A stretch of 33,092 bases of DNA from positions 1-33,092 of the forward strand of contig JAHJHM010000127.1 of the NCBI GenBank assembly GCA_018823915.1, read 5' to 3'. A program made the position numbers and the translations under genes. This stretch comes from Candidatus Omnitrophota bacterium (GTDB lineage Bacteria > Omnitrophota > Gorgyraeia > Duberdicusellales > 4484-171). The notes under the pieces were generated by a model that was not told the DNA's origin, ran no database searches, and saw nothing but the letters and a program-made list of their open reading frames with translations. This document shows positions 53-31,870 of this stretch, in pieces; the stretch's first letter is position 1; each line of letters starts with the position of its first letter.

Positions 53-87
53 TACAATTTACAATTTGCAATTTGCATTTTGCACTG
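53..87. repeat. Heptamer tandem array, 5 units TACAATT/TGCAATT/TGCATTT/TGCACTG (TGCAAAA family, reverse orientation)
   Basis: Direct reading shows a strict 7-nt period from 53 to 87. It abuts a GAATATTCACTG box (87-98) whose inverted partner is at 126-136. Confidence 0.9.
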
Positions 88-162
88 AATATTCACTGGA
101 TATTCAAAAGAATTTGGACGGTGTTCAGTGAATATTTACCTGCAATATTATTAAATAATCGT

Positions 163-5849: not shown

Positions 5850-6989
5850 ATGAGATTTATAAAAGAACTAAAGAATCTAAAAGTTTATAAACCGGGTAAA
5901 CCAATTGAAGAAGTTAAGGGATCTTTAGGTTTGGAAACGGTATACAAGCTTGCCTCCAATGAAATTCCTTTCCCTCCTTTGTATATCCGTAAAAGTATCC
6001 AGGCAGAATTAGAGAATATTAATCGTTACCCCCAAGGAAGTTGTCATTATTTAAGAAAATTTTTAGCTAAAAAATTTAGAATCAATGAGAGCCAAATTGT
6101 TTTTGGTAATGGCTCGGATGAAATAATTGTGCTTACCTTGCGAGCCCTAATAGAAAAAGGCGATGAGGTTATAGTTGCTTATCCTACATTTTTAATTTAT
6201 GAAATTCAGGCAGCGATTTCCGGAGCGAAAGTGGTAAGGGTTCCTTTAAAAGAGTTTCATTATGATTTGCCAGAGCTGGCGAAAAAAGTAAACAGAAAGA
6301 CGAAAATCATTTTCATTGCTAATCCGGATAATCCCACAGGAACTTATTGTAACCATAAAGAAATAAGTAATTTTCTTAAATTAATACCCAAAAGCGTATT
6401 GGTTTATTTTGATGAGGCTTATTTTGAGTTTGCCCCTGGAGATTTCCCAAAAACAGAGCAATTTTTAAGGATGAGAGATAATGTTATTTTTACCCGAACA
6501 TTCTCTAAGGCTTATGCCTTGGCAGGCTTGCGAATTGGTTATGGAATCACAACACTTAAAATCGCTGCTGCCTTAAATAAAGTCAGAGAACCGTTTAATA
6601 TAAATAGATTTGCTCAAGTAGCTGGTGTTTGCGCTTTAGAAAATAAAGGTTTTTTAAAAAAGGTGATACCTTACATTGAGAGAGAAAAAAAGTATCTCTA
6701 TGGTGGTTTAAGTGGTTTAGGAGTTTTTTTTGTAGAAAGCGCCGCTAATTTTATCCTTATTGATCTTAAAAAAGATACAAAAAGTCTTTATAATTACCTT
6801 TTAAAGAAAGGGGTTATCGTACGGGAATTAAGAGGCTGGGGGTTGAAGAATTTTTTTCGAGTGACTATTGGATTGCATAAGGAAAATAAGAAATTCATAG
6901 GATGCCTTAGGGGCTATCTACAAAAAAGTAATAAGTGCGGTCGTAGTATAGTTGAATTTAAACATTGTCCCTCGCGCCTGAATATCTGA
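5850..6989 (+). CDS. hisC: Histidinol-phosphate/aromatic aminotransferase (class II PLP aminotransferase)
   Basis: YPDP-like region (NPDNPTG) and the SFSKAYALAGLRIGY PLP-lysine motif. ATG 5850 is preferred over GTG 5829. The last approx 20 codons (KSNKCGRSIVEFKHCPSRLNI) read into repeat sequence; see findings. Confidence 0.88.
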   Translation: MRFIKELKNLKVYKPGKPIEEVKGSLGLETVYKLASNEIPFPPLYIRKSIQAELENINRYPQGSCHYLRKFLAKKFRINESQIVFGNGSDEIIVLTLRALIEKGDEVIVAYPTFLIYEIQAAISGAKVVRVPLKEFHYDLPELAKKVNRKTKIIFIANPDNPTGTYCNHKEISNFLKLIPKSVLVYFDEAYFEFAPGDFPKTEQFLRMRDNVIFTRTFSKAYALAGLRIGYGITTLKIAAALNKVREPFNINRFAQVAGVCALENKGFLKKVIPYIEREKKYLYGGLSGLGVFFVESAANFILIDLKKDTKSLYNYLLKKGVIVRELRGWGLKNFFRVTIGLHKENKKFIGCLRGYLQKSNKCGRSIVEFKHCPSRLNI

Positions 6990-7033
6990 AAAATCTCTTG
7001 CGACATTTTTCAGAAGCGCTTCGGGATCAATTC
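6964..7033 (+). repeat. 70-nt structured dispersed repeat, copy A
   Basis: 67 of 70 positions are identical to 12212-12281. Internal perfect 9-bp stem CTGAAAAAT/ATTTTTCAG with a 10-nt loop, and an outer CCC..GCGC/GCGC..GGG stem. The hisC stop codon (6987-6989) lies inside it. Confidence 0.9.
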
Positions 7034-8117: not shown

Positions 8118-8152
8118 AAAATGCAAAATGCAAAATGCAAAATGCAAAATTG
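8118..8152. repeat. Heptamer tandem array, AAAATGC x4 + AAAATTG
   Basis: Four perfect units plus one variant, starting 5 nt after the DAHP synthase stop. Confidence 0.95.
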
Positions 8153-9680: not shown

Positions 9681-9715
9681 GTTTATGGTTTATGGTTGAT
9701 GGTTTATAGGTTGGA
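9681..9715. repeat. Heptamer tandem array GTTTATG x2, GTTGATG, GTTTATA, GGTTGGA
   Basis: Strict 7-nt period starting 8 nt after the cmk stop. Confidence 0.9.
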
Positions 9716-12205: not shown

Positions 12206-12211
12206 TAAAAT

Positions 12212-12281
12212 ATTGCCCCTCGCGCCTAAATATCTGAAAAATCTCTTGCGACATTTTTCAGAAGCGCTTCGGGATTAATTC
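12212..12281 (+). repeat. 70-nt structured dispersed repeat, copy B
   Basis: See copy A. Three substitutions, none in the 9-bp inner stem. Confidence 0.9.
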
Positions 12282-16921: not shown

Positions 16922-19581
16922 TGAAGACAGATGATTTAAGAAAGACTTTTTTAGAGTTTTTTAAAAGCAAAGGCCACAAAATTTATCCTTCGGATAGTTT
17001 AGTCCCTGATGACCCCACCATTTTTTTTACTTGCGCAGGGATGAATCAGTTTAAACCTTATTTTTTGGGAGAAAGAAAGGATTGTCAACGCGCGGCCTCG
17101 GTTCAGAAGTGTTTGCGCACGGACGATCTCTTAAAAGTAGGCAAAACCGCTTATCACCATACTTTTTTTGAAGTGTTAGGCAATTTTTCTTTTGGTGACT
17201 ACTTTAAAAAAGAAGCAATAGAATTTGCATGGGGATTTCTCACTCAACATTTGAACATAAAACAAGAGGATTTGTGGATTTCTGTTTACAAGCTGGATGA
17301 GCAAGCTTACCGAATCTGGAAAGATTATATCGGTGTTTCCCAAGATAGAATAGTTAAGTTGGCAGAAGCAAGTAATTTTTGGCCGGCTAATGCTCCTGCC
17401 CTTGGACCTAACGGCCCTTGCGGCCCGTGTTCAGAAATTTTCTTTGATAAGGGAGAAATTAGCGGGTGCGGAAGAGGAGAATGTAATCCTGCTTGTGACT
17501 GCGGGAGGTTTGTGGAAGTTTGGAATTTAGTTTTTACTCAGTTTAATCGTGTAGGGGAAAACAAATTGGAACCTCTTCCTCAGAGGAATATTGATACTGG
17601 AATGGGGATAGAGAGGATGGCTTCTGTTTTGCAGGGCAAAAACACTAATTTTGAAATCGATATTTTATCTCCCGCGGTAGAGTTTGTAAAAGAATTACTA
17701 CGAACTACGAACTACCCTCCGATTGCGCTCAGGGCAGGCGAACTACGAACTACGAATTCAATAAATGCTATTACCGATCATACGCGGGCAGCAACTTTTG
17801 CCATTGCTGATGGAGTGTATCCAACAAATGAGGAAAGAGGTTATGTGGTAAGAAAAATTATCAGAAAAGCTGTATGGAAAGGGCATCTTCTGGGAAGGCG
17901 TAAGGCTTTTCTTTATGAATTAGTCAGTTGCTTTGCCGAGTTGATGAAGGAGCCTTACCCGGAAATTAATGAAAAGAAAGAAGTCATTAGCAGGGTAATT
18001 CGCGTGGAAGAAGAAAGATTTCTTCTCACTTTAGAAAACGTAAAACAGCAGTTCTCAGTAATTATTGACGGTTTAAAAAAAGAAAATAAGGATATAGTGG
18101 GAGCTCCTGAGTTATTCCAGTTCCATGATACTTATGGGTTTCCCTTAGAGTTAAGTAGAGAGATTGCATGGGCTCACAACATGAAAATAGACGCCCAGGG
18201 GTTTGAGGTATTATTAAAAGATCAGCAGGAGCGTTCCCGTAAGAGGAGCAGTTTTGTGGATAGTGTTTTTTTAAAAGATTCTCCAGGTATTAAAATTCTT
18301 AAAGAGAATAAAACAAAATTTGTGGGATACGATTGCACAATTCACCAAGCCCTCGTTCTATTAATCAGAAAGGGCGAAAAGGATGTTGAGGTTCTTGCCG
18401 AAGGCGAGGGAGGCTTAATTATTTTGAAGGAAACACCTTTTTATCCTGAAAGCGGCGGGCAATTATCTGATAGAGGGATCATTAAAACCCAAAGAGGAGA
18501 GTTTTTGGTTGATGAAGTGTTTAGGTTGGCAGATGCTATCATTCATAAAGGAAGAATGATAAATGGGAAAATCCAAAGTGGCGAAATTGTTAACGCAATG
18601 GTAGAGGTAAAAAGAAGAAGAGCGATATCTCGCGCGCACACTGCTGCTCATCTTCTCCAGGCGGCATTAAGGGTAACATTGGGCGCCCATGTTGCCCAAC
18701 AGGGTTCGTTGGTTGACGATGATAGGCTGCGTTTTGATTTTACGCATTTTGAAGGTATTAGAAAAATTAACTTAAAAGAAATCGAGCAGTTAGTAAATAA
18801 GTATATATTAAGAGGGAGTAAGGTTGAAAAATATATTATGTCCCAAGAGGAAGCAAGAAAGCAGGGGGCTTTAGCTTTTTTTAAAGATAAATATGCCGAA
18901 TATGTAAGAGTCGTTTCTATATCTAATCTCAGTAAGGAACTGTGCGCGGGAACGCATCTTGAGAATACTTCCGGGATTGGGCTTTTCTCCATTATTTCCG
19001 AATCTTCGATAAGCAGCGGGATAAGAAGGATAGAGGCAGTAGTGGGTGAGAAAGCATACAGTCATTTCCAAATTTTAGAAACAAACATAAAAGATGTTGC
19101 GGATGTGTTGAACTGCAATCCCCAGGATTTACCAAATTTTACAAAGAAACTTAAAGAAGAACTTAAAAAAGAAAAAGAGAAGGTGGAAGTATTAAATAAA
19201 GAGATTCTAACATTCTCGATAAAGGATATTGTTAAAAATAAAAAAACCGTAGAGGGAGTAAATGTGTTAGTGTATGAGTTACCAGGAGCTAGCAAAGAAA
19301 GCCTCCTGTGCCTTTATGATTTATCGCGCAAACAAATTAGCTCTTTGTTTGTTTTTTTCTATAGCTTGCTTTCCAAAAAGAGCATTTTTGTTTGCGCGAT
19401 GAGTGATGATATCGTGGATAAAGGTTTTAGCTGCAAGAAATTTATTTCTCTTTTCGAGAAAGAATTATTTTTAAAAGGCGGCGGCAGAGATAGCTTAGTT
19501 CAGGGTATTATAGAAAAAAAACAGGAAAATTTTAGAGAAAAGGTTGAAAAGAATCTTGTCGGATTCTTAAATAGGCAGTAG
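16921..19581 (+). CDS. alaS: Alanine--tRNA ligase
   Basis: 886 aa. FTCAGMNQFKP, GPCGPCSEIF, editing-domain HTAAHLL and CAGTH motifs, C-terminal DHHA1 domain (GGGR). Carries an in-frame repeat insertion at 17698-17756. Confidence 0.97.
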   Translation: MKTDDLRKTFLEFFKSKGHKIYPSDSLVPDDPTIFFTCAGMNQFKPYFLGERKDCQRAASVQKCLRTDDLLKVGKTAYHHTFFEVLGNFSFGDYFKKEAIEFAWGFLTQHLNIKQEDLWISVYKLDEQAYRIWKDYIGVSQDRIVKLAEASNFWPANAPALGPNGPCGPCSEIFFDKGEISGCGRGECNPACDCGRFVEVWNLVFTQFNRVGENKLEPLPQRNIDTGMGIERMASVLQGKNTNFEIDILSPAVEFVKELLRTTNYPPIALRAGELRTTNSINAITDHTRAATFAIADGVYPTNEERGYVVRKIIRKAVWKGHLLGRRKAFLYELVSCFAELMKEPYPEINEKKEVISRVIRVEEERFLLTLENVKQQFSVIIDGLKKENKDIVGAPELFQFHDTYGFPLELSREIAWAHNMKIDAQGFEVLLKDQQERSRKRSSFVDSVFLKDSPGIKILKENKTKFVGYDCTIHQALVLLIRKGEKDVEVLAEGEGGLIILKETPFYPESGGQLSDRGIIKTQRGEFLVDEVFRLADAIIHKGRMINGKIQSGEIVNAMVEVKRRRAISRAHTAAHLLQAALRVTLGAHVAQQGSLVDDDRLRFDFTHFEGIRKINLKEIEQLVNKYILRGSKVEKYIMSQEEARKQGALAFFKDKYAEYVRVVSISNLSKELCAGTHLENTSGIGLFSIISESSISSGIRRIEAVVGEKAYSHFQILETNIKDVADVLNCNPQDLPNFTKKLKEELKKEKEKVEVLNKEILTFSIKDIVKNKKTVEGVNVLVYELPGASKESLLCLYDLSRKQISSLFVFFYSLLSKKSIFVCAMSDDIVDKGFSCKKFISLFEKELFLKGGGRDSLVQGIIEKKQENFREKVEKNLVGFLNRQ
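17698..17756 (+). mobile_element. In-frame 45-nt insertion in alaS: GC-rich core flanked by a 14-nt direct repeat made of CTACGAA heptamers
   Basis: CTACGAACTACGAA occurs at 17698-17711 and 17743-17756, an offset of 45 nt (15 codons). The protein reads LRTTN-YPPIALRAGE-LRTTN. Core GATTGCGCTCAGGGCAG (17721-17737) matches 20930-20946 at 14 of 17 positions. Confidence 0.6.
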
Positions 19582-19601
19582 GGACAAGGCATGCCTTGTC
19601 C
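19582..19601 (+). terminator. Perfect 20-nt palindrome after alaS followed by a T-rich tract
   Basis: GGACAAGGCA/TGCCTTGTCC starts directly after the alaS stop, then CTCTAAATTTATT. Likely an intrinsic terminator or attenuating hairpin. Confidence 0.6.
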
Positions 19602-19628
19602 TCTAAATTTATTGAGGTATTTAATCTA

Positions 19629-20843
19629 ATGAGAGTAGTAAGAAATTTAGATAGTCTGGAAAAGCTAATTTTAAAAAAGAGAGCAAAGAAAAATAAGATA
19701 AATGAACGGGTAAATAAAATCATAAAAAATGTTAAAGAAAGAGGAGATGATGCTTTAGGAGAGTATACAAGAAAATTTGATAAAGTTAAAATTTCTCCCA
19801 ATGAGCTAAGGGTGAGTGAGGTAGAGATAAGCGCGGCCTTTAACGCGTTAGATTCTTCTTTAATTTCTTCTTTCAAGTTCGCTATAGATAATGTAACTAA
19901 GTTTTATAAAGAGCAATTGCCTAAGACGCAAAGGCTTAAAGAGGCAAATGGCAAGGTTCTCATTACCCGCTATATTCCTTTGGAAAGAATAGGGATATAT
20001 ATTCCCGCCGGTACTGCTCCCTTAATTTCTACAGTTTATATGTCTGTTATTCCCGCGCGGGTTGCAGGAGTAAAAGACATAGTTTTAACCTCACCCGCCG
20101 CTTTAGATAAAAGCATAAACCCTTTTATTCTTGCTGTTGCATCTTTGCTTAAGATAAAAGAGATTTATCGCGTAGGAGGAGCTCAGGCAATCGCCGCTTT
20201 AGCTTATGGAACGAAGACAATCAGAAAGGTAGATAAAATTATCGGCCCAGGAAATGAATTTGTTACAGAGGCAAAACGACAAGTTTTTGGAGAAGTGGGC
20301 ATTGATATGCTTGCCGGGCCATCAGAGGTAGTAATCCTTGCTTCTAAGGACGCGAATCTAGATTATCTTACTGCTGACTTAGACGCTCAAATGGAACATT
20401 CCGGCGGCGTAGGCATTGTGGTTACTAATTCCCGTAAGATAATAAGAGAGTTAAGAAAGAAGAGGATTGGAGGGTTTATTTTGCGAGTGAGAAATTTAGA
20501 TGGTGCTGCTGCGGCAGTGAATAGAATTTCTCCCGAGCACTTGGAAATTCTTACCAAGAAACCTTCTTTGGTTTTAAAAAAGATTAAGAACGCGGGGGCA
20601 ATCTTTTTAGGAGAGAATACCCCTGTAGCTTTAGGAGATTATACTGCCGGCCCCAGCCATATTTTGCCTACTTCCGGTACGGCTCGTTTTTTCTCTTCTC
20701 TTTCTGTGAGAGAGTTTCTTAAAGAGGTTCATATTATAAGTTATACTAAAAAGGCATTGCAGGAGGAAATAGGAGCTTTAGAGAAAATCGCCTCCTTAGA
20801 GGGAATGAATAAGCATATAGAGAGTGTTAGGAAGAGGCTATGA
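19629..20843 (+). CDS. hisD: Histidinol dehydrogenase
   Basis: Family-typical IYIPAGTAPLISTVYMSVIPARVAGV and QMEH motifs. ATG 19629 is preferred. The track start 19596 is a TTG inside the alaS terminator palindrome. Confidence 0.92.
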   Translation: MRVVRNLDSLEKLILKKRAKKNKINERVNKIIKNVKERGDDALGEYTRKFDKVKISPNELRVSEVEISAAFNALDSSLISSFKFAIDNVTKFYKEQLPKTQRLKEANGKVLITRYIPLERIGIYIPAGTAPLISTVYMSVIPARVAGVKDIVLTSPAALDKSINPFILAVASLLKIKEIYRVGGAQAIAALAYGTKTIRKVDKIIGPGNEFVTEAKRQVFGEVGIDMLAGPSEVVILASKDANLDYLTADLDAQMEHSGGVGIVVTNSRKIIRELRKKRIGGFILRVRNLDGAAAAVNRISPEHLEILTKKPSLVLKKIKNAGAIFLGENTPVALGDYTAGPSHILPTSGTARFFSSLSVREFLKEVHIISYTKKALQEEIGALEKIASLEGMNKHIESVRKRL

Positions 20844-20882
20844 CTGGAGTTTTCCTATTTTTTTCTGACCGGAAAACTCCAG
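20844..20882 (+). other. 12-bp perfect hairpin directly after the hisD stop
   Basis: CTGGAGTTTTCC (20844-20855) and GGAAAACTCCAG (20871-20882) with a 15-nt T-rich loop. No downstream U tract. Confidence 0.7.
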
Positions 20883-20886
20883 AGTT

Positions 20887-20982
20887 CAAAATGCAAAATG
20901 AAAAATGCAAAAGTTTAAATCAACCATTTGATTACACTCAGGGTAGATGGCGAGCGAAGTCGAACCATCAAAATTCAAAAGT
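20887..20982 (+). repeat. Composite element: CAAAATG-family heptamers (x4), a 54-nt GC-richer core, then CAAAATT CAAAAGT heptamers
   Basis: Heptamers at 20887-20914 and 20969-20982. The core contains GATTACACTCAGGGTAG (20930-20946) and a GATGG-CGA-GCGAAG-TCG-AA-CCATC hairpin (20946-20969). Confidence 0.75.
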
Positions 20983-21017
20983 CTTAATATTTTCAAAGGA
21001 TAAAAAAGAGGGGGGAT

Positions 21018-21608
21018 ATGAGAAAAGCAAGAATAAGACGAAAAACTAAAGAAGTGGATATAACTGTGGAATTGAATCTTGATGGTGAGGGGAAACACAG
21101 GATAGATACAGGGGTAGATTTCCTAAACCACATGCTTTCTTTATTTGGTAAGCATGGAATTTTTGATTTGAAAATAAAAGCTAGGGGTGATTTAGGCGTG
21201 GACATCCATCATGTCAACGAGGATTTAGGGATTGCTTTAGGATGTACTTTTTTAAAGTCTTTAGGCAATAAAGAAAAAATATCCCGTTTTGGATTTAGTT
21301 TTGTTTGTATGGACGAAGCCTTGATTAGGTGCGTTTTAGATATTAGCGGAAGGCCTTATCTTAAAGTAAGGCCTGATAAATTAAAAATTATTGATGATAG
21401 AAACTATACTTTTTCCCATTTCAAACAATTCCTAAGAGCATTTGTAGATCATTCCGGAATAAGTGTTCATTTGGATATTTCCGAAGGTGAGGATTACCAC
21501 CATATTATAGAGGCTTGCTTTAAGGCTTTAAGCATAGCCCTATGTGCGGCAGTGAGAATAGAAAAAAGGAAAAAAGGGGTACCTACAACTAAAGGAAAGA
21601 TTGATTAA
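21018..21608 (+). CDS. hisB: Imidazoleglycerol-phosphate dehydratase
   Basis: IDTGVDFLNHML and DYHHIIEACFKAL (D-x-HH-x2-E) motifs. G-rich SD GAGGGGGG lies upstream. Confidence 0.94.
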   Translation: MRKARIRRKTKEVDITVELNLDGEGKHRIDTGVDFLNHMLSLFGKHGIFDLKIKARGDLGVDIHHVNEDLGIALGCTFLKSLGNKEKISRFGFSFVCMDEALIRCVLDISGRPYLKVRPDKLKIIDDRNYTFSHFKQFLRAFVDHSGISVHLDISEGEDYHHIIEACFKALSIALCAAVRIEKRKKGVPTTKGKID

Positions 21609-21618
21609 AGACGAAAGG

Positions 21619-21656
21619 TAGTTTATAGCTATAAACCATACACCATAAACTATAAA
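21619..21656. repeat. Palindrome GTTTATAGCTATAAAC plus heptamer array CTATAAA CCATACA CCATAAA CTATAAA (reverse complement of the GTTTATG family)
   Basis: 7-nt period from 21629 to 21656. This is the reverse complement of the units seen at 9681-9715 and 25364-25398. Confidence 0.85.
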
Positions 21657-21673
21657 CTTTTAGAAATAACAGT

Positions 21674-24816: not shown

Positions 24817-25364
24817 AAGAGGCATTTAAAATAATAGTAGTTTTAACCGTTATATGTTTAATTTGTGCTTTTTTTCTTTCTTTTGTTTTTAGTGTAGCCA
24901 AAGAAAAAATAGAGATGAATGCTAAAAGGGCAATTGAAGAGGGGATTTCTAAATTAGCCCCTTGCGCTAAAAGGGTAGAGGAGATCAAATTAAAAGACGA
25001 GGTTGTGTATAAACTTTTTGATGAGCAGGATAATTCGGTTGGCTATGCTTTTTTGGCCCAAGGCCAAGGCTATCAGGGAAAGATAAAAATTTTAGCCGTG
25101 GTTGACTCATCTTTAGAAAAATTAGAAGGTATAGAAGTAGTGGAATCAGTAGAAACCCCTGGATTAGGAGCAAGAATTACAGAGGCTCTTTTCATGGAGC
25201 AGTTTAAAAAGTTAACTGTAATTCCCAAAATAGAATATGTAAAGGAAGAAGTAGAGAAAGATAATCAGATAATGGCAATTACTGGAGCGACTGTCACATC
25301 CAAGGCAGTAGTGAATATTTTGAATAAGAGGATAGAGGAGCTAAGAGAAGAATTAAAGGGGTAG
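24813..25364 (+). CDS. rnfG: Rnf complex subunit G
   Basis: Single N-terminal TM helix, FMN_bind domain with ITGATVTSKAV motif. GTG start overlaps the rnfD stop. Confidence 0.9.
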   Translation: MKEAFKIIVVLTVICLICAFFLSFVFSVAKEKIEMNAKRAIEEGISKLAPCAKRVEEIKLKDEVVYKLFDEQDNSVGYAFLAQGQGYQGKIKILAVVDSSLEKLEGIEVVESVETPGLGARITEALFMEQFKKLTVIPKIEYVKEEVEKDNQIMAITGATVTSKAVVNILNKRIEELREELKG

Positions 25365-25398
25365 TTTATGGCTGATAGTTTATAGTTTATGGCTGAGA
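25364..25398. repeat. Heptamer array GTTTATG GCTGATA GTTTATA GTTTATG GCTGAGA spanning the rnfG stop and rnfE start
   Basis: 7-nt period. The rnfE ATG (25389) is the ATG of a GTTTATG unit. Confidence 0.85.
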
Positions 25399-26009
25399 TT
25401 ATAGAATCAAAAATTAAAATGAAAAAGGAATTTATTAAAGGTTTGTGGAAGGAACATCCAATTTTAAGGCAACTGTTGGGGATGTGTCCGGCCTTGGCGG
25501 TAACTACTTCGGCAATAAACGGAATCTCTATGGGCTTAGCAGTTATTTTTGTCCTTTTTTTCTCCTCCTTGGTTGTTTCTTTGATAAAGAAAGTTATTCC
25601 TCCTCAAGTGCGCATTGCTGTTTATACCGTAATTATCGCTACTTTTGTTACTGTTGTAGATATATTTTTTAAAGCAAATTTTCCTCAAATTAGCCGTGCC
25701 CTCGGCCCCTACCTTCCTTTAATTGTGGTTAATTGCATTATTCTTGGAAGATGTGAAGCCTTTGCTTCTAAAAATAGTGTATTGGTTTCATTGCTTGATG
25801 CTTTAGGGATGGGTTTAGGATTTATGTGGGGATTATTTCTTCTTGGTTCAATAAGGGAGATCCTTGGTTTCGGGAGTTTGTTAGGTGTAAAGATGATGCC
25901 TCCTGAATACAATCCTTTAATAATAATGATTCTGCCCGCGGGAGCATTTTTGGTGCTAGGGTTTTTAGTAGCGGTGATGAATAGATTAGAATTAAGAATT
26001 AAGGATTAA
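25389..26009 (+). CDS. rnfE: Rnf complex subunit E
   Basis: GLWKEHPILRQLLGMCPALAVT motif. The start is uncertain: ATG 25389 lies inside a heptamer repeat, and ATG 25419 is the alternative. The C-terminus and stop are encoded by the TTAAGGA array. Confidence 0.9.
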   Translation: MAEIIESKIKMKKEFIKGLWKEHPILRQLLGMCPALAVTTSAINGISMGLAVIFVLFFSSLVVSLIKKVIPPQVRIAVYTVIIATFVTVVDIFFKANFPQISRALGPYLPLIVVNCIILGRCEAFASKNSVLVSLLDALGMGLGFMWGLFLLGSIREILGFGSLLGVKMMPPEYNPLIIMILPAGAFLVLGFLVAVMNRLELRIKD

Positions 26010-26026
26010 GGATTAAGGATTAAGTA
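25985..26026. repeat. Heptamer array ATTAGAA TTAAGAA TTAAGGA x3 TTAAGTA
   Basis: 7-nt period. Encodes the last 8 codons and the TAA stop of rnfE, and provides the AAGGA SD for rnfA (ATG 26031). Confidence 0.9.
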
Positions 26027-31633: not shown

Positions 31634-31636
31634 TGT

Positions 31637-31715
31637 AAATATTCAGTGAACCACGTCTAAATTTTTCTGAATATTCAGTGCAAAATGCAAACTGCAAACT
31701 GCAAATTGCATACCC
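31637..31715. repeat. Two AATATTCAGTG boxes followed by heptamer array CAAAATG CAAACTG x2 CAAATTG CATACCC
   Basis: Boxes at 31638-31648 and 31670-31680. Heptamers at 31681-31715. Positions 31668-31691 are the exact reverse complement of 72-95. Confidence 0.9.
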
Positions 31716-31814
31716 TAACGGGCACAAGCAAGTTAAAATTACTTATTTTTCTTTGTCGTAATTACTGACTTTGCAATAATCTCCATTAGTTTTGCTATTT
31801 CTTTTAAGTTTATT

Positions 31815-31870
31815 TTGCATTTTTCACTTTGCATTTTGCAATTTGCAATAGAATGTACTTCACTTACTAC
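31815..31870. repeat. Heptamer array TTGCATT TTTCACT TTGCATT TTGCAAT x2 (+3 degenerate units), inverted relative to 31681-31715
   Basis: 7-nt period. Reverse-complement family of the array about 105 nt upstream. Confidence 0.85.

What the first reader, a model, noticed from the sequence alone, without database searches (positions are those of the whole stretch)
20844..20982. The hisD-hisB spacer is a mosaic of hairpin, heptamer array and core element, the intergenic counterpart of the alaS insert
Directly after the hisD stop lies a perfect 12-bp hairpin (20844-20882). Four CAAAATG-type heptamers follow, then a core with GATTACACTCAGGGTAG and a GATGG...CCATC hairpin, then two more heptamers of the same family. 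CAAAAGT occurs on both sides, at 20908 and 20976. The architecture of heptamers, core, then the same heptamers matches the alaS insertion even though the heptamer sequence differs (CAAAATG versus CTACGAA). That suggests the core inserts into, or duplicates, pre-existing heptamer tracts. The alaS core looks like a deletion derivative: GGCGAAC versus GGCGAGCGAAGTCGAAC.
Basis: seen in the sequence. Interest (0 to 1): 0.6.

Follow-up and report, generated by a model that had tools for sequence, protein, structure and literature searches.

The report
Tiny mobile hairpin in repeat cassette
The gap between two histidine genes of an uncultured groundwater bacterium is a copy of a dispersed repeat cassette, and a 48-base mobile hairpin element has landed in it. 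The element appears to choose its landing site by base pairing with four of its own central bases.

Summary

- **Cassette.** The hairpin (20844-20882), the CAAAATG heptamers and the tail CTTAATATTTTCAA form one dispersed cassette, which I call module M. It has 7-8 copies in this Omnitrophota genome.
- **Insertion.** Five copies have an empty slot (..CAAATCAA|AATTC..). The hisD-hisB copy holds a 48-nt insert (20924-20971). Another copy holds an unrelated 28-nt hairpin repeat at about the same place.
- **Wider family.** The insert has the form [3][TTCGACTTCGCTCA][3'][X'][TGG][TGAGCGAAGTCGAA][CCA][X] and follows a flanking X. Among 83 distinct copies (81 metagenomic plus two from this genome), left X equals right X in 63. 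X' is the complement in 60, with at least 10 different X.
- **Behaviour elsewhere.** Tandem arrays have a period of exactly 48. Removing 48 nt restores heptamer register.
- **Mechanism.** This pattern fits guide-directed insertion 3' of a tetranucleotide, as in IS200/IS605 (HUH/Y1) transposons. No transposase partner was found.
- **alaS.** The alaS insert is the common 24-nt solo half-form, not a deletion derivative.
- **Effect on the operon.** A sister strain has a wholly different spacer. A metatranscriptome contig spans the spacer, so it probably does not terminate transcription. It is most likely selfish DNA.

The parts
19596..20843 (+). hisD (histidinol dehydrogenase), stop TGA at 20841-43
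   Evidence: ORF. PF00815 is recorded on the same gene in near-identical contigs.
20844..20882 (+). Hairpin of dispersed cassette 'module M' (12-bp stem, 15-nt loop)
   Evidence: Sequence. nhmmer finds copies on C121, C32, C203, C158, C53 and C33, with a weaker one on C85. In 7 aligned copies 90.5% of cells are paired and 2 pairs change on both sides. Among 41 relatives it occurs only in this genome.
20883..20923 (+). A-rich heptamer tract of module M (CAAAATG family), ending in the target tetranucleotide TCAA at 20920-23
   Evidence: TRF. It aligns with the same tract in the other module M copies.
20924..20971 (+). 48-nt composite mobile element. Sub-parts: CCA 20924-26; loop 1 TTTGATTACACTCA 20927-40; GGG 20941-43; central tetranucleotide X' TAGA 20944-47; TGG 20948-50; loop 2 CGAGCGAAGTCGAA 20951-64; CCA 20965-67; terminal X TCAA 20968-71
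   Evidence: It is absent from 5 paralogous module M copies, and C32 carries a different repeat at about the same position. The same unit occurs on C47 and in 5 related genomes. 83 distinct copies were analysed, 81 of them from metagenomes.
20972..20997 (+). Tail of module M (AATTCAAAAGTCTTAATATTTTCAAA)
   Evidence: It aligns with the tails of the C121, C203, C85 and C53 copies.
21008..21020 (+). Shine-Dalgarno-like GAGGGGGG and the hisB start ATG (21018)
   Evidence: Sequence. ORF 21018-21608. PF00475 (IGPD).
17697..17756 (+). alaS in-frame segment. ACTACGA heptamers (17697-17714 and 17739-17756) flank the 24-nt solo core CCCTCCGATTGCGCTCAGGGCAGG (17715-17738)
   Evidence: The loop is 20 aa here, against about 12 aa in 15 Omnitrophota AlaRS proteins.

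Best explanation
The 174-nt hisD-hisB spacer is layered selfish DNA, not a dedicated regulatory region.

**Layer 1.** The spacer is one copy of a genus-specific dispersed cassette, module M. The cassette consists of a hairpin, a TGCAAAA/CAAAATG-type heptamer tract and an AT-rich tail.

**Layer 2.** A 48-nt non-autonomous mobile element inserted into that tract immediately 3' of a TCAA. The element consists of two small hairpins whose 14-nt loops are conserved: TTCGACTTCGCTCA and its complement. The two hairpins share a central tetranucleotide X'. X' is complementary both to the tetranucleotide X just left of the element and to the X that ends the element.

**Inferred mechanism.** X' acts as a guide. 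It pairs with X to define both cleavage sites and the target. The 48-nt unit is then cut out and pasted 3' of any exposed X without a true target duplication. This is the logic of IS200/IS605-type HUH (Y1) transposition. A-rich heptamer tracts are favoured landing sites because they repeat TCAA-like targets.

**Relation to alaS.** The 24-nt alaS insert is the solo half-form of the same family.

**Shown versus inferred.** The insertion, the family, the three-way covariation, and the exact 48-nt and 24-nt increments are shown. The enzyme and the single-strand mechanism are inferred.

My confidence is about 0.85 that the element is an insertion from a mobile family. It is about 0.4 for guide-directed HUH chemistry. 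The overall figure of 0.6 combines the two.
For: **Evidence that the element is an insertion**
- Eight module M copies align. Five are uninterrupted at ..CAAATCAA|AATTCAAAA... The hisD-hisB copy carries exactly 48 extra nt there. C32 carries an unrelated 28-nt repeat at about the same place.

**Evidence for a family**
- The same 48-nt unit lies on C47 and in 5 related genomes.

**Evidence for base-pair-directed targeting**
- In 83 distinct copies, left X equals right X in 63, X' is the complement of right X in 60, and all three agree in 51. At least 10 different X occur.
- In 57 ungapped copies the left helix is 93% paired, with double changes at 5 of 7 pairs. The right helix is 96% paired, with double changes at 3 of 7 pairs. 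None of 500 shuffles reaches the observed covariation score, share of paired cells or number of cells changed on both sides.
- Tandem arrays have a period of exactly 48 and share X between units (L151, L163, L175, L178, L185).
- Removing 48 nt restores heptamer register (L167, L145, L216).

**Evidence on the solo form**
- Solo 24-nt cores show no flanking duplication.
- 12 of 35 solos continue the array in register, against 1.8 expected.

**Evidence on a possible enzyme**
- This genome has 16 PF01797 (Y1_Tnp, RAYT-like) matches, the most among 41 relatives.
- Y1 counts correlate with core counts across those genomes (Spearman 0.42, p = 0.007).

**Evidence on effect**
- One metatranscriptome contig spans hisD, the spacer and hisB.
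- A sister strain has an unrelated 139-nt spacer.
- No promoter-like, terminator-like or Rfam match was found.
Against: - No Y1 gene lies next to any core copy in this genome, in 4 Y1 loci of relatives, or within 478 kb around 80 composite loci.
- No autonomous element with these ends was found.
- The geometry differs from IS608. There the guides lie 5' of each hairpin, and the left and right cleavage sites differ.
- Solo 24-nt cores do not show the X/X' rule, so they may move differently.
- The hisD-hisB copy itself is degraded. Its X' is TAGA rather than TTGA, its first stem is CCA against GGG, and loop 1 carries changes towards A and T.
- The scan pattern fixed two positions of X', so the apparent 'TY' start of X is partly imposed by the search.
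- RNA contigs may contain DNA carry-over.
Confidence: 0.6

Rival explanations
1. The element is a miniature inverted-repeat element moved by a DDE transposase. The 14-nt loops act as terminal inverted repeats, and the flanking tetranucleotide is a 4-bp target-site duplication.
For: Identical 4-mers flank the 44-nt body in 63 of 83 copies. The two loop sequences are inverted repeats that are 89% complementary.
Against: A target duplication cannot explain why the internal tetranucleotide X' is complementary to the flank in 60 of 83 copies across at least 10 different X. It also cannot explain why the outermost 3 nt of the left end vary and covary with internal bases while the right end is fixed as CCA. 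No DDE partner was seen.
Confidence: 0.1
2. The element spreads without a dedicated transposase. Copying would occur by template switching or short-patch gene conversion between tandem-repeat tracts, as proposed for the small dispersed repeats of cyanobacteria. The hairpins would only stall replication.
For: Solo 24-nt cores insert cleanly, in register, in period-7 and period-8 arrays without flanking repeats. One solo lies nested inside another in G008. In G014, pieces of the core are themselves amplified in tandem (L122). No enzyme is linked to any copy.
Against: The three-way X/X'/X covariation and the exact 48-nt tandem units point to sequence-directed cutting and joining. Many composite copies lie in unique sequence and inside genes, not in arrays.
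Confidence: 0.2
3. The element is a host-selected structured RNA or DNA signal. It might be an mRNA-stabilising or processing hairpin between hisD and hisB, or a switch between two alternative hairpins. On this view it is not a mobile element.
For: Two mutually exclusive helices share X', with strong covariation. The spacer is present in a transcript contig.
Against: - Cassette orientation relative to flanking genes is mixed.
- 48 of 80 composite copies lie inside long open frames, on either strand.
- Five paralogous cassettes lack the element.
- A sister strain with 93-98% identical flanking genes has a different spacer.
- The fold of the whole spacer is no better than shuffles (z = -0.43).
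- There is no Rfam match.
Confidence: 0.07

Closest known systems
IS200/IS605-family transposons and their short derivatives (PATEs), moved by HUH/Y1 TnpA with transposon-directed target choice (Barabas 2008 and Guynet 2009, cited from my own knowledge)
   Same: - Hairpins at both ends.
- Insertion immediately 3' of a specific tetranucleotide.
- No true target duplication.
- The cleavage tetranucleotides are matched by base pairing to an internal 'guide' tetranucleotide.
- Many Y1 genes are present in the host genome.
   Different: - The element is only 48 nt.
- One central guide serves both ends.
- The left and right cleavage tetranucleotides are identical.
- The guide lies 3' of the left hairpin.
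- The loops are conserved and the stems vary.
- No autonomous element or linked tnpA was found.
Small dispersed repeats (SDR1-8, 21-27 nt) of Nostoc punctiforme and relatives (Elhai et al. 2008, Genome Res 18:1484). The paper is not held in the library. PMC4390886 cites it for precise SDR5 insertion within HIP1.
   Same: - Very small size: the solo form is 24 nt.
- Precise insertion without flanking duplication.
- Copies nest inside other repeats. As I recall it, this includes tandem heptamer arrays, but I could not check that detail.
- Spread to many loci.
   Different: - Different phylum (Omnitrophota, with the loop motif also in FCPU426 genomes).
- Any sequence relationship is untested.
- The 48-nt composite with three-way tetranucleotide covariation is not, to my knowledge, described for SDRs.
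REP/REPIN elements with RAYT transposases (Bertels and Rainey 2011, PMC3116915)
   Same: - Short hairpin repeats.
- Inverted doublets as the apparent mobile unit, with singlets as a second form.
- RAYT-like Y1 genes are abundant in the genome.
   Different: - No GTAG head.
- Not flanking any Y1 gene.
- Often inside coding sequence.
- Much shorter than REPINs.
Rickettsia palindromic elements (RPEs)
   Same: Palindromic repeats that persist in frame inside protein-coding genes. Here the added lengths are 24 nt and 48 nt, which equal 8 and 16 codons.
   Different: RPEs are about 100-150 nt, are restricted to Rickettsia, and have no known guide-like covariation.
Intergenic heptamer arrays: the STRR repeats of heterocystous cyanobacteria (from my own knowledge), and the TAACTGA repeats of Beggiatoaceae, some Cyanobacteria and Bacteroidetes (MacGregor 2015, PMC4679880)
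   Same: Hundreds of short period-7 arrays lie mostly between genes. They fall into a few sequence families and are mixed with other repeats.
   Different: The units differ (TGCAAAT/TGCAAAA, AAACTAT and others), and the phylum differs. Here the arrays are shown to act as landing sites for small elements.

Membership tests
IS200/IS605-type non-autonomous element (PATE) | Insertion immediately 3' of a specific tetra- or pentanucleotide, without target duplication | tested here: met
   Empty module M copies read ..ATCAA|AATTC.., and the filled copy adds 48 nt ending in TCAA. Tandem units share X at a period of 48, and removing 48 nt restores array register.
IS200/IS605-type non-autonomous element (PATE) | Cleavage and target tetranucleotides recognised by pairing with an internal guide | tested here: inconclusive
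   X' is the complement of X in 60 of 83 copies, with at least 10 different X, and covariation is strong. However, the geometry differs from IS608 and no biochemistry is available.
IS200/IS605-type non-autonomous element (PATE) | Hairpins at both ends and no terminal inverted repeats | tested here: inconclusive
   Two 7-bp helices are supported. The two loops are nevertheless inverted repeats of each other (89% complementary).
IS200/IS605-type non-autonomous element (PATE) | A cognate autonomous element or Y1 transposase with the same ends | tested here: not met
   There are 16 Y1_Tnp matches in this genome, but none is near a core. None lies within 478 kb around 80 composite loci, and none of 4 Y1 loci in relatives carries the motif.
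REP/REPIN-RAYT | RAYT gene flanked by its own REP or REPIN copies | tested here: not met
REP/REPIN-RAYT | Extragenic location with a conserved GTAG-type head | tested here: not met
   48 of 80 composites lie inside open frames of at least 120 aa. The consensus has no GTAG head.
Small dispersed repeats (Elhai 2008) | 21-27 nt unit, dispersed, precise insertion without flanking duplication, often within tandem heptamers or other repeats | tested here: met
   This applies to the solo form. It is 24 nt with no excess microhomology. 12 of 35 solos lie in register in arrays. One solo is nested inside another in G008.
Small dispersed repeats (Elhai 2008) | Sequence or structural identity with SDR1-8 of the Nostocaceae | not testable with these tools
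   The paper and its sequences are not held.
DDE-type MITE | Terminal inverted repeats plus a target-site duplication of fixed length that is unrelated to internal sequence | tested here: not met
   The flanking 4-mers covary with the internal X'.
Intrinsic terminator or known cis-regulatory RNA | GC-rich stem followed by a T-run, or a match to an Rfam model | tested here: not met
   A transcript contig reads through the spacer.

The most novel reading that the evidence does not exclude
The 48-nt unit could be the smallest known self-guided transposon. A two-hairpin single strand would use one central tetranucleotide to programme both its own excision sites and its target. An unlinked HUH enzyme would move it. 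Changing the guide would change the target: TCAA, TCGA, TTGG, TTAA and other subfamilies exist. Because it adds exactly 16 codons with four of six frames open, it would spread through genes as well as spacers of Omnitrophota and neighbouring phyla. Heptamer tracts would serve as harmless landing pads.
Probability: 0.3. Interest if true: 0.85.

Novelty: new variant of a known kind. Interest (0 to 1): 0.7.

Why it matters
Mobile DNA below 50 nt is almost undescribed, and how such pieces move is an open question. This family offers a clear, testable rule. The flank, the element's end and the element's centre carry matching tetranucleotides in dozens of independent copies. That points to base-pair-directed targeting by a very small substrate.

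The result also explains why heptamer-rich spacers in this lineage are mosaics, and why the same short sequence appears in frame inside essential genes such as alaS. It warns annotators that many conserved-looking hairpins and odd peptide segments in metagenome-assembled genomes are parasitic inserts.

If the guide rule holds biochemically, the element would be a minimal model for programmable single-strand DNA insertion.

Tried and rejected
- **Known RNA families.** Rfam gave nothing, either at gathering threshold on the whole window or at relaxed E-values on the spacer.
- **Promoter and terminator scan.** Nothing was found.
- **Fold of the whole spacer.** It is no better than shuffles.
- **First hairpin as locus-specific.** My first short-word BLAST suggested this. 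It was wrong. Reads and nhmmer showed the hairpin is part of a dispersed cassette.
- **Long hairpin between the core and its inverted half as the selected structure.** It is only 81-89% paired, with almost no covariation. I rejected it in favour of the two 7-bp helices.
- **Target duplication or microhomology at solo cores.** There is none.
- **Linkage to Y1 transposase genes.** None was found.
- **Phage carriage.** None was found in the 2.9 million viral contigs.
- **Literature by exact sequence.** No held paper contains it.
- **Elhai 2008.** The paper could not be read.
- **Hammerhead-like reading of CTGATGG.** I considered this and dropped it, because that tetranucleotide varies between copies.
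- **Crude periodicity score for array association.** It was too insensitive. I replaced it with TRF-based tests.

Full report
**Observation**

- hisD (19596-20843; PF00815 on near-identical contigs) ends with TGA at 20841-43.
- A perfect 12-bp stem with a 15-nt loop occupies 20844-20882.
- Four CAAAATG-type heptamers lie at 20887-20914.
- They are followed by GATTACACTCAGGGTAG and a GATGG..CCATC stem, then by CAAAATT CAAAAGT.
- hisB (PF00475) starts at 21018 behind GAGGGGGG.
- The only other window match to the 17-mer is inside alaS at 17721. Shuffles expect 0.04 matches.

**Host genome**

The window is contig C115 of a 2.09-Mb metagenome-assembled genome with 261 contigs and 38% GC. Its AlaRS places it in Candidatus Omnitrophota, with a best relative at 58% identity. 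Runs holding the sequence are groundwater metagenomes.

TRF finds 789 period-7 arrays, against at most 255 for any other period. Of these, 652 have three or more copies. TGCAAAT and TGCAAAA units dominate. About two thirds of the arrays are intergenic by crude ORF calls, and many contig ends are such arrays. This resembles the STRR repeats of cyanobacteria and the TAACTGA arrays of Beggiatoaceae (MacGregor 2015, PMC4679880).

**The core family and tandem arrays**

The core is a 24-nt unit, CCCTTCGAYTNCRCTCAGGRCARG.
- nhmmer finds 15 copies at E < 0.02 in this genome.
- 19 of 41 related genomes carry it, with zero control hits.
- The loop motif also occurs in two FCPU426 genomes. It is absent from a small sample of Actinomycetota and Chloroflexota.

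Removing exactly 24 nt restores array register in several copies:
- alaS: 7 of 7 positions across the junction
- C70: 6 of 7
- C17: 5 of 7
- C156 and C157: two period-8 arrays

In this genome, 5 of 15 copies interrupt an array, against 4.8% of random intergenic points (p = 5e-4). Seven of 15 lie within 12 nt of an array, against 10% (p = 3.5e-4). In 35 solo copies (9 from this genome and 26 from relatives), 12 continue the period in register, against 1.8 expected and a maximum of 7 in 2000 permutations. They show no excess flanking microhomology (1.29 nt against 1.20 nt, p = 0.34).

In alaS the segment is 60 nt, or 20 aa, in a loop that is about 12 aa in 15 Omnitrophota AlaRS proteins. That is 36 nt of heptamers plus the 24-nt core. 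The deletion-derivative idea fails.

**The spacer is a cassette with an insert**

Laying public contigs on the spacer revealed a second locus with the same hairpin, heptamers and tail but without the central 53 nt. It lies on contig C121 of the same genome, and a third copy lies on C32.

nhmmer and alignment give eight copies of this cassette, module M: C115, C121, C32, C203, C158, C85, C53 and C33.
- Five copies are uninterrupted at ..CAAATCAA|AATTCAAAA.. .
- The hisD-hisB copy has 48 extra nt at that point (20924-20971).
- C32 holds an unrelated 28-nt hairpin repeat, P (CTACCCAGCAGGGTGTCCTGTTGGACTA, 47 matches), at about the same place.

The module M hairpin is 90.5% paired, with two pairs changed on both sides. 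Among 41 relatives it occurs only in this genome. Cassette orientation relative to flanking genes is mixed.

**The 48-nt composite**

The same unit occurs on C47, inside a giant open frame. It also occurs in five related genomes.

Its anatomy is: X | 3 nt, TTCGACTTCGCTCA, 3 nt', X', TGG, TGAGCGAAGTCGAA, CCA, X.

Among 83 distinct copies (81 from metagenomes and the two from this genome):

| Relationship | Copies |
|---|---|
| Left X equals right X | 63 |
| X' is the reverse complement of right X | 60 |
| All three agree | 51 |

At least ten different X occur, including TCAA, TCGA, TTAA, TTGG, TTGA, TCAG, TCGG and TTAG. The first three bases covary with the three bases before X' (TCC/GGA, CAC/GTG, CCC/GGG, TAC/GTA, CGC/GCG).

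On 57 ungapped copies:

| Helix | Cells paired | Pairs with double changes |
|---|---|---|
| Left | 93.2% | 5 of 7 (14-26 sequences each) |
| Right | 96.2% | 3 of 7 |
| Long loop-to-loop | 89% | 2 of 14 (few sequences each) |

For the left and right helices, none of 500 shuffles reaches the observed covariation score, share of paired cells or number of cells changed on both sides. The counts of pairs or pair types do not exceed the shuffles.

One caveat applies. The scan pattern fixed the last base of X' as A and the third as a purine, so the 'TY' start of X is partly imposed. Left X, right X and the first three bases were unconstrained.

Further observations:
- Tandem arrays have a period of exactly 48, with X shared between units (L151, L163, L175, L178, L185).
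- Where composites sit in heptamer arrays, deleting 48 nt restores register (L167, L145, L216).
- 48 of 80 copies lie inside stop-free frames of at least 120 aa, on either strand. Four of the six frames of the element are open, and 48 nt equals 16 codons.

**Mechanism**

A flanking tetranucleotide equals the element's last four bases and is complementary to its centre. A target-site duplication by a DDE enzyme would not produce this pattern. It is what IS200/IS605-type HUH/Y1 transposition predicts. In that system, cleavage 3' of tetranucleotides is specified by pairing with internal guide bases. The element is excised seamlessly and inserted 3' of the target (Barabas 2008 and Guynet 2009, from my own knowledge).

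I infer that X' is a single shared guide. A-rich heptamers such as (AAAATCA)n are favoured targets because they repeat TCAA.

In support, this genome has 16 Y1_Tnp (RAYT-like, HUH plus Tyr) matches, the most among 41 relatives. Y1 counts correlate with core counts (rho = 0.42, p = 0.007). The presence/absence test gives p = 0.075.

Against the inference:
- No Y1 gene is near any copy.
- No autonomous element was found.
- The geometry differs from IS608.
- The solo 24-mers do not obey the X rule.

I therefore hold that the element is an insertion from a mobile family at about 0.85, and guide-directed HUH chemistry at about 0.4.

**Consequence for the his operon**

- One metatranscriptome contig (1417 nt) spans hisD, the spacer and hisB with three differences. 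This suggests read-through, although DNA carry-over cannot be excluded.
- Four other assemblies have the identical spacer.
- A sister strain whose flanking genes are about 93-98% identical has an unrelated 139-nt spacer. It is built from TAGTTTA/TGGTTTA heptamers and a CCTGCC..GGCAGG hairpin.
- The hisD-hisB composite is itself decayed. X' is TAGA rather than TTGA, the first stem is CCA against GGG, and loop 1 carries changes towards A and T.

The spacer is therefore fast-turnover selfish DNA rather than a conserved regulator.

**Comparison and novelty**

The solo form meets the operational definition of Elhai's small dispersed repeats, but in a different phylum. That paper could not be read. 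PMC4390886 confirms the precise insertion of SDR5.

The composite is closest in logic to IS200/IS605 derivatives. It fails the REP/REPIN tests: no GTAG head, not extragenic, and not next to a RAYT gene. It resembles RPEs only in its tolerance inside genes.

An earlier agent of this scan reached the 24-nt mobile-repeat reading for alaS. My census agrees with it. New in this report are the cassette with empty slots, the 48-nt composite with three-way covariation, and the strain-level replacement of the spacer. I rate the finding a new variant of a known kind.

Noticed in passing
whole genome G000; window arrays at 51-84, 8118-8150, 9681-9712, 21631-21657, 25362-25390, 25991-26024, 31679-31710 and 31812-31847: There are 789 period-7 tandem arrays in 2.09 Mb, about one per 2.6 kb. 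TGCAAAT and TGCAAAA units dominate, and many contigs end in such arrays.
   Followed up: partly
window 31700-31730, compared with G000 C239 (about 13795) and C106: There is a second filled/empty pair for a different small repeat. The window reads CATACC-CTA-ACGGGCACAAGC. Paralogous sites on C239 and C106 carry the 28-nt hairpin repeat P (CTACCCAACAGGGTGTCCTGCTGGACTA) there, which adds 25 nt next to CTA. P gives 47 matches in the genome, some in tandem.
   Followed up: partly
L263 1255-1393 (Logan contig of SRR13662870): A sister strain with near-identical hisD and hisB has an unrelated 139-nt spacer. It is built from TAGTTTA/TGGTTTA heptamers plus a CCTGCCTGTCGGCAGG hairpin, so the whole intergenic cassette has been replaced between strains.
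   Followed up: yes
G000 C47 (1-6066) and C139 (1-8445): Each whole contig is a single open frame (more than 2000 aa and more than 2800 aa). These giant frames contain core copies, the 48-nt composite and heptamer arrays in frame, for example ..GPSITLRTSSPTE.. .
   Followed up: no
L127-L131 (G008): Five copies share a different 48-nt arrangement. One 24-nt solo core is inserted in inverse orientation into another solo core, between TTCGACTACG and CTCAGG.
   Followed up: no
L122 (G014:C311, about 14955): Pieces of the core are themselves tandemly amplified: (CCTTCGACTT)n on the left and (TCGCTCAGGACAAG)n on the right.
   Followed up: no
G000 contigs C2, C30, C69, C82, C86, C122, C129, C141, C149, C236, C244 and others: There are 16 matches to PF01797 (Y1_Tnp), the most among 41 relatives. 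The eleven full-length ORFs I extracted are RAYT-like proteins of 219-336 aa. None is adjacent to the core repeats. Only one (on C235) lies within about 300 nt of P copies, and another (on C202) has a P copy about 2 kb away.
   Followed up: partly
window 55-139 and 31635-31708: The two ends of the contig carry the same repeat in inverted orientation: GTAAATATTCAGTGAAC...CTGAATATTCAGTG followed by TGCAAAN heptamers. This is probably another dispersed cassette that breaks the assembly.
   Followed up: no
window 6960-7033 and 12208-12281: A 74-nt direct repeat is 95% identical between the two sites. Each copy contains a TCTGAAAAAT..ATTTTTCAGA hairpin.
   Followed up: no
L151, L163, L175, L178, L185, L199 (metagenome contigs): The 48-nt composite forms head-to-tail arrays of 2-4 units with a period of exactly 48.
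   Followed up: partly
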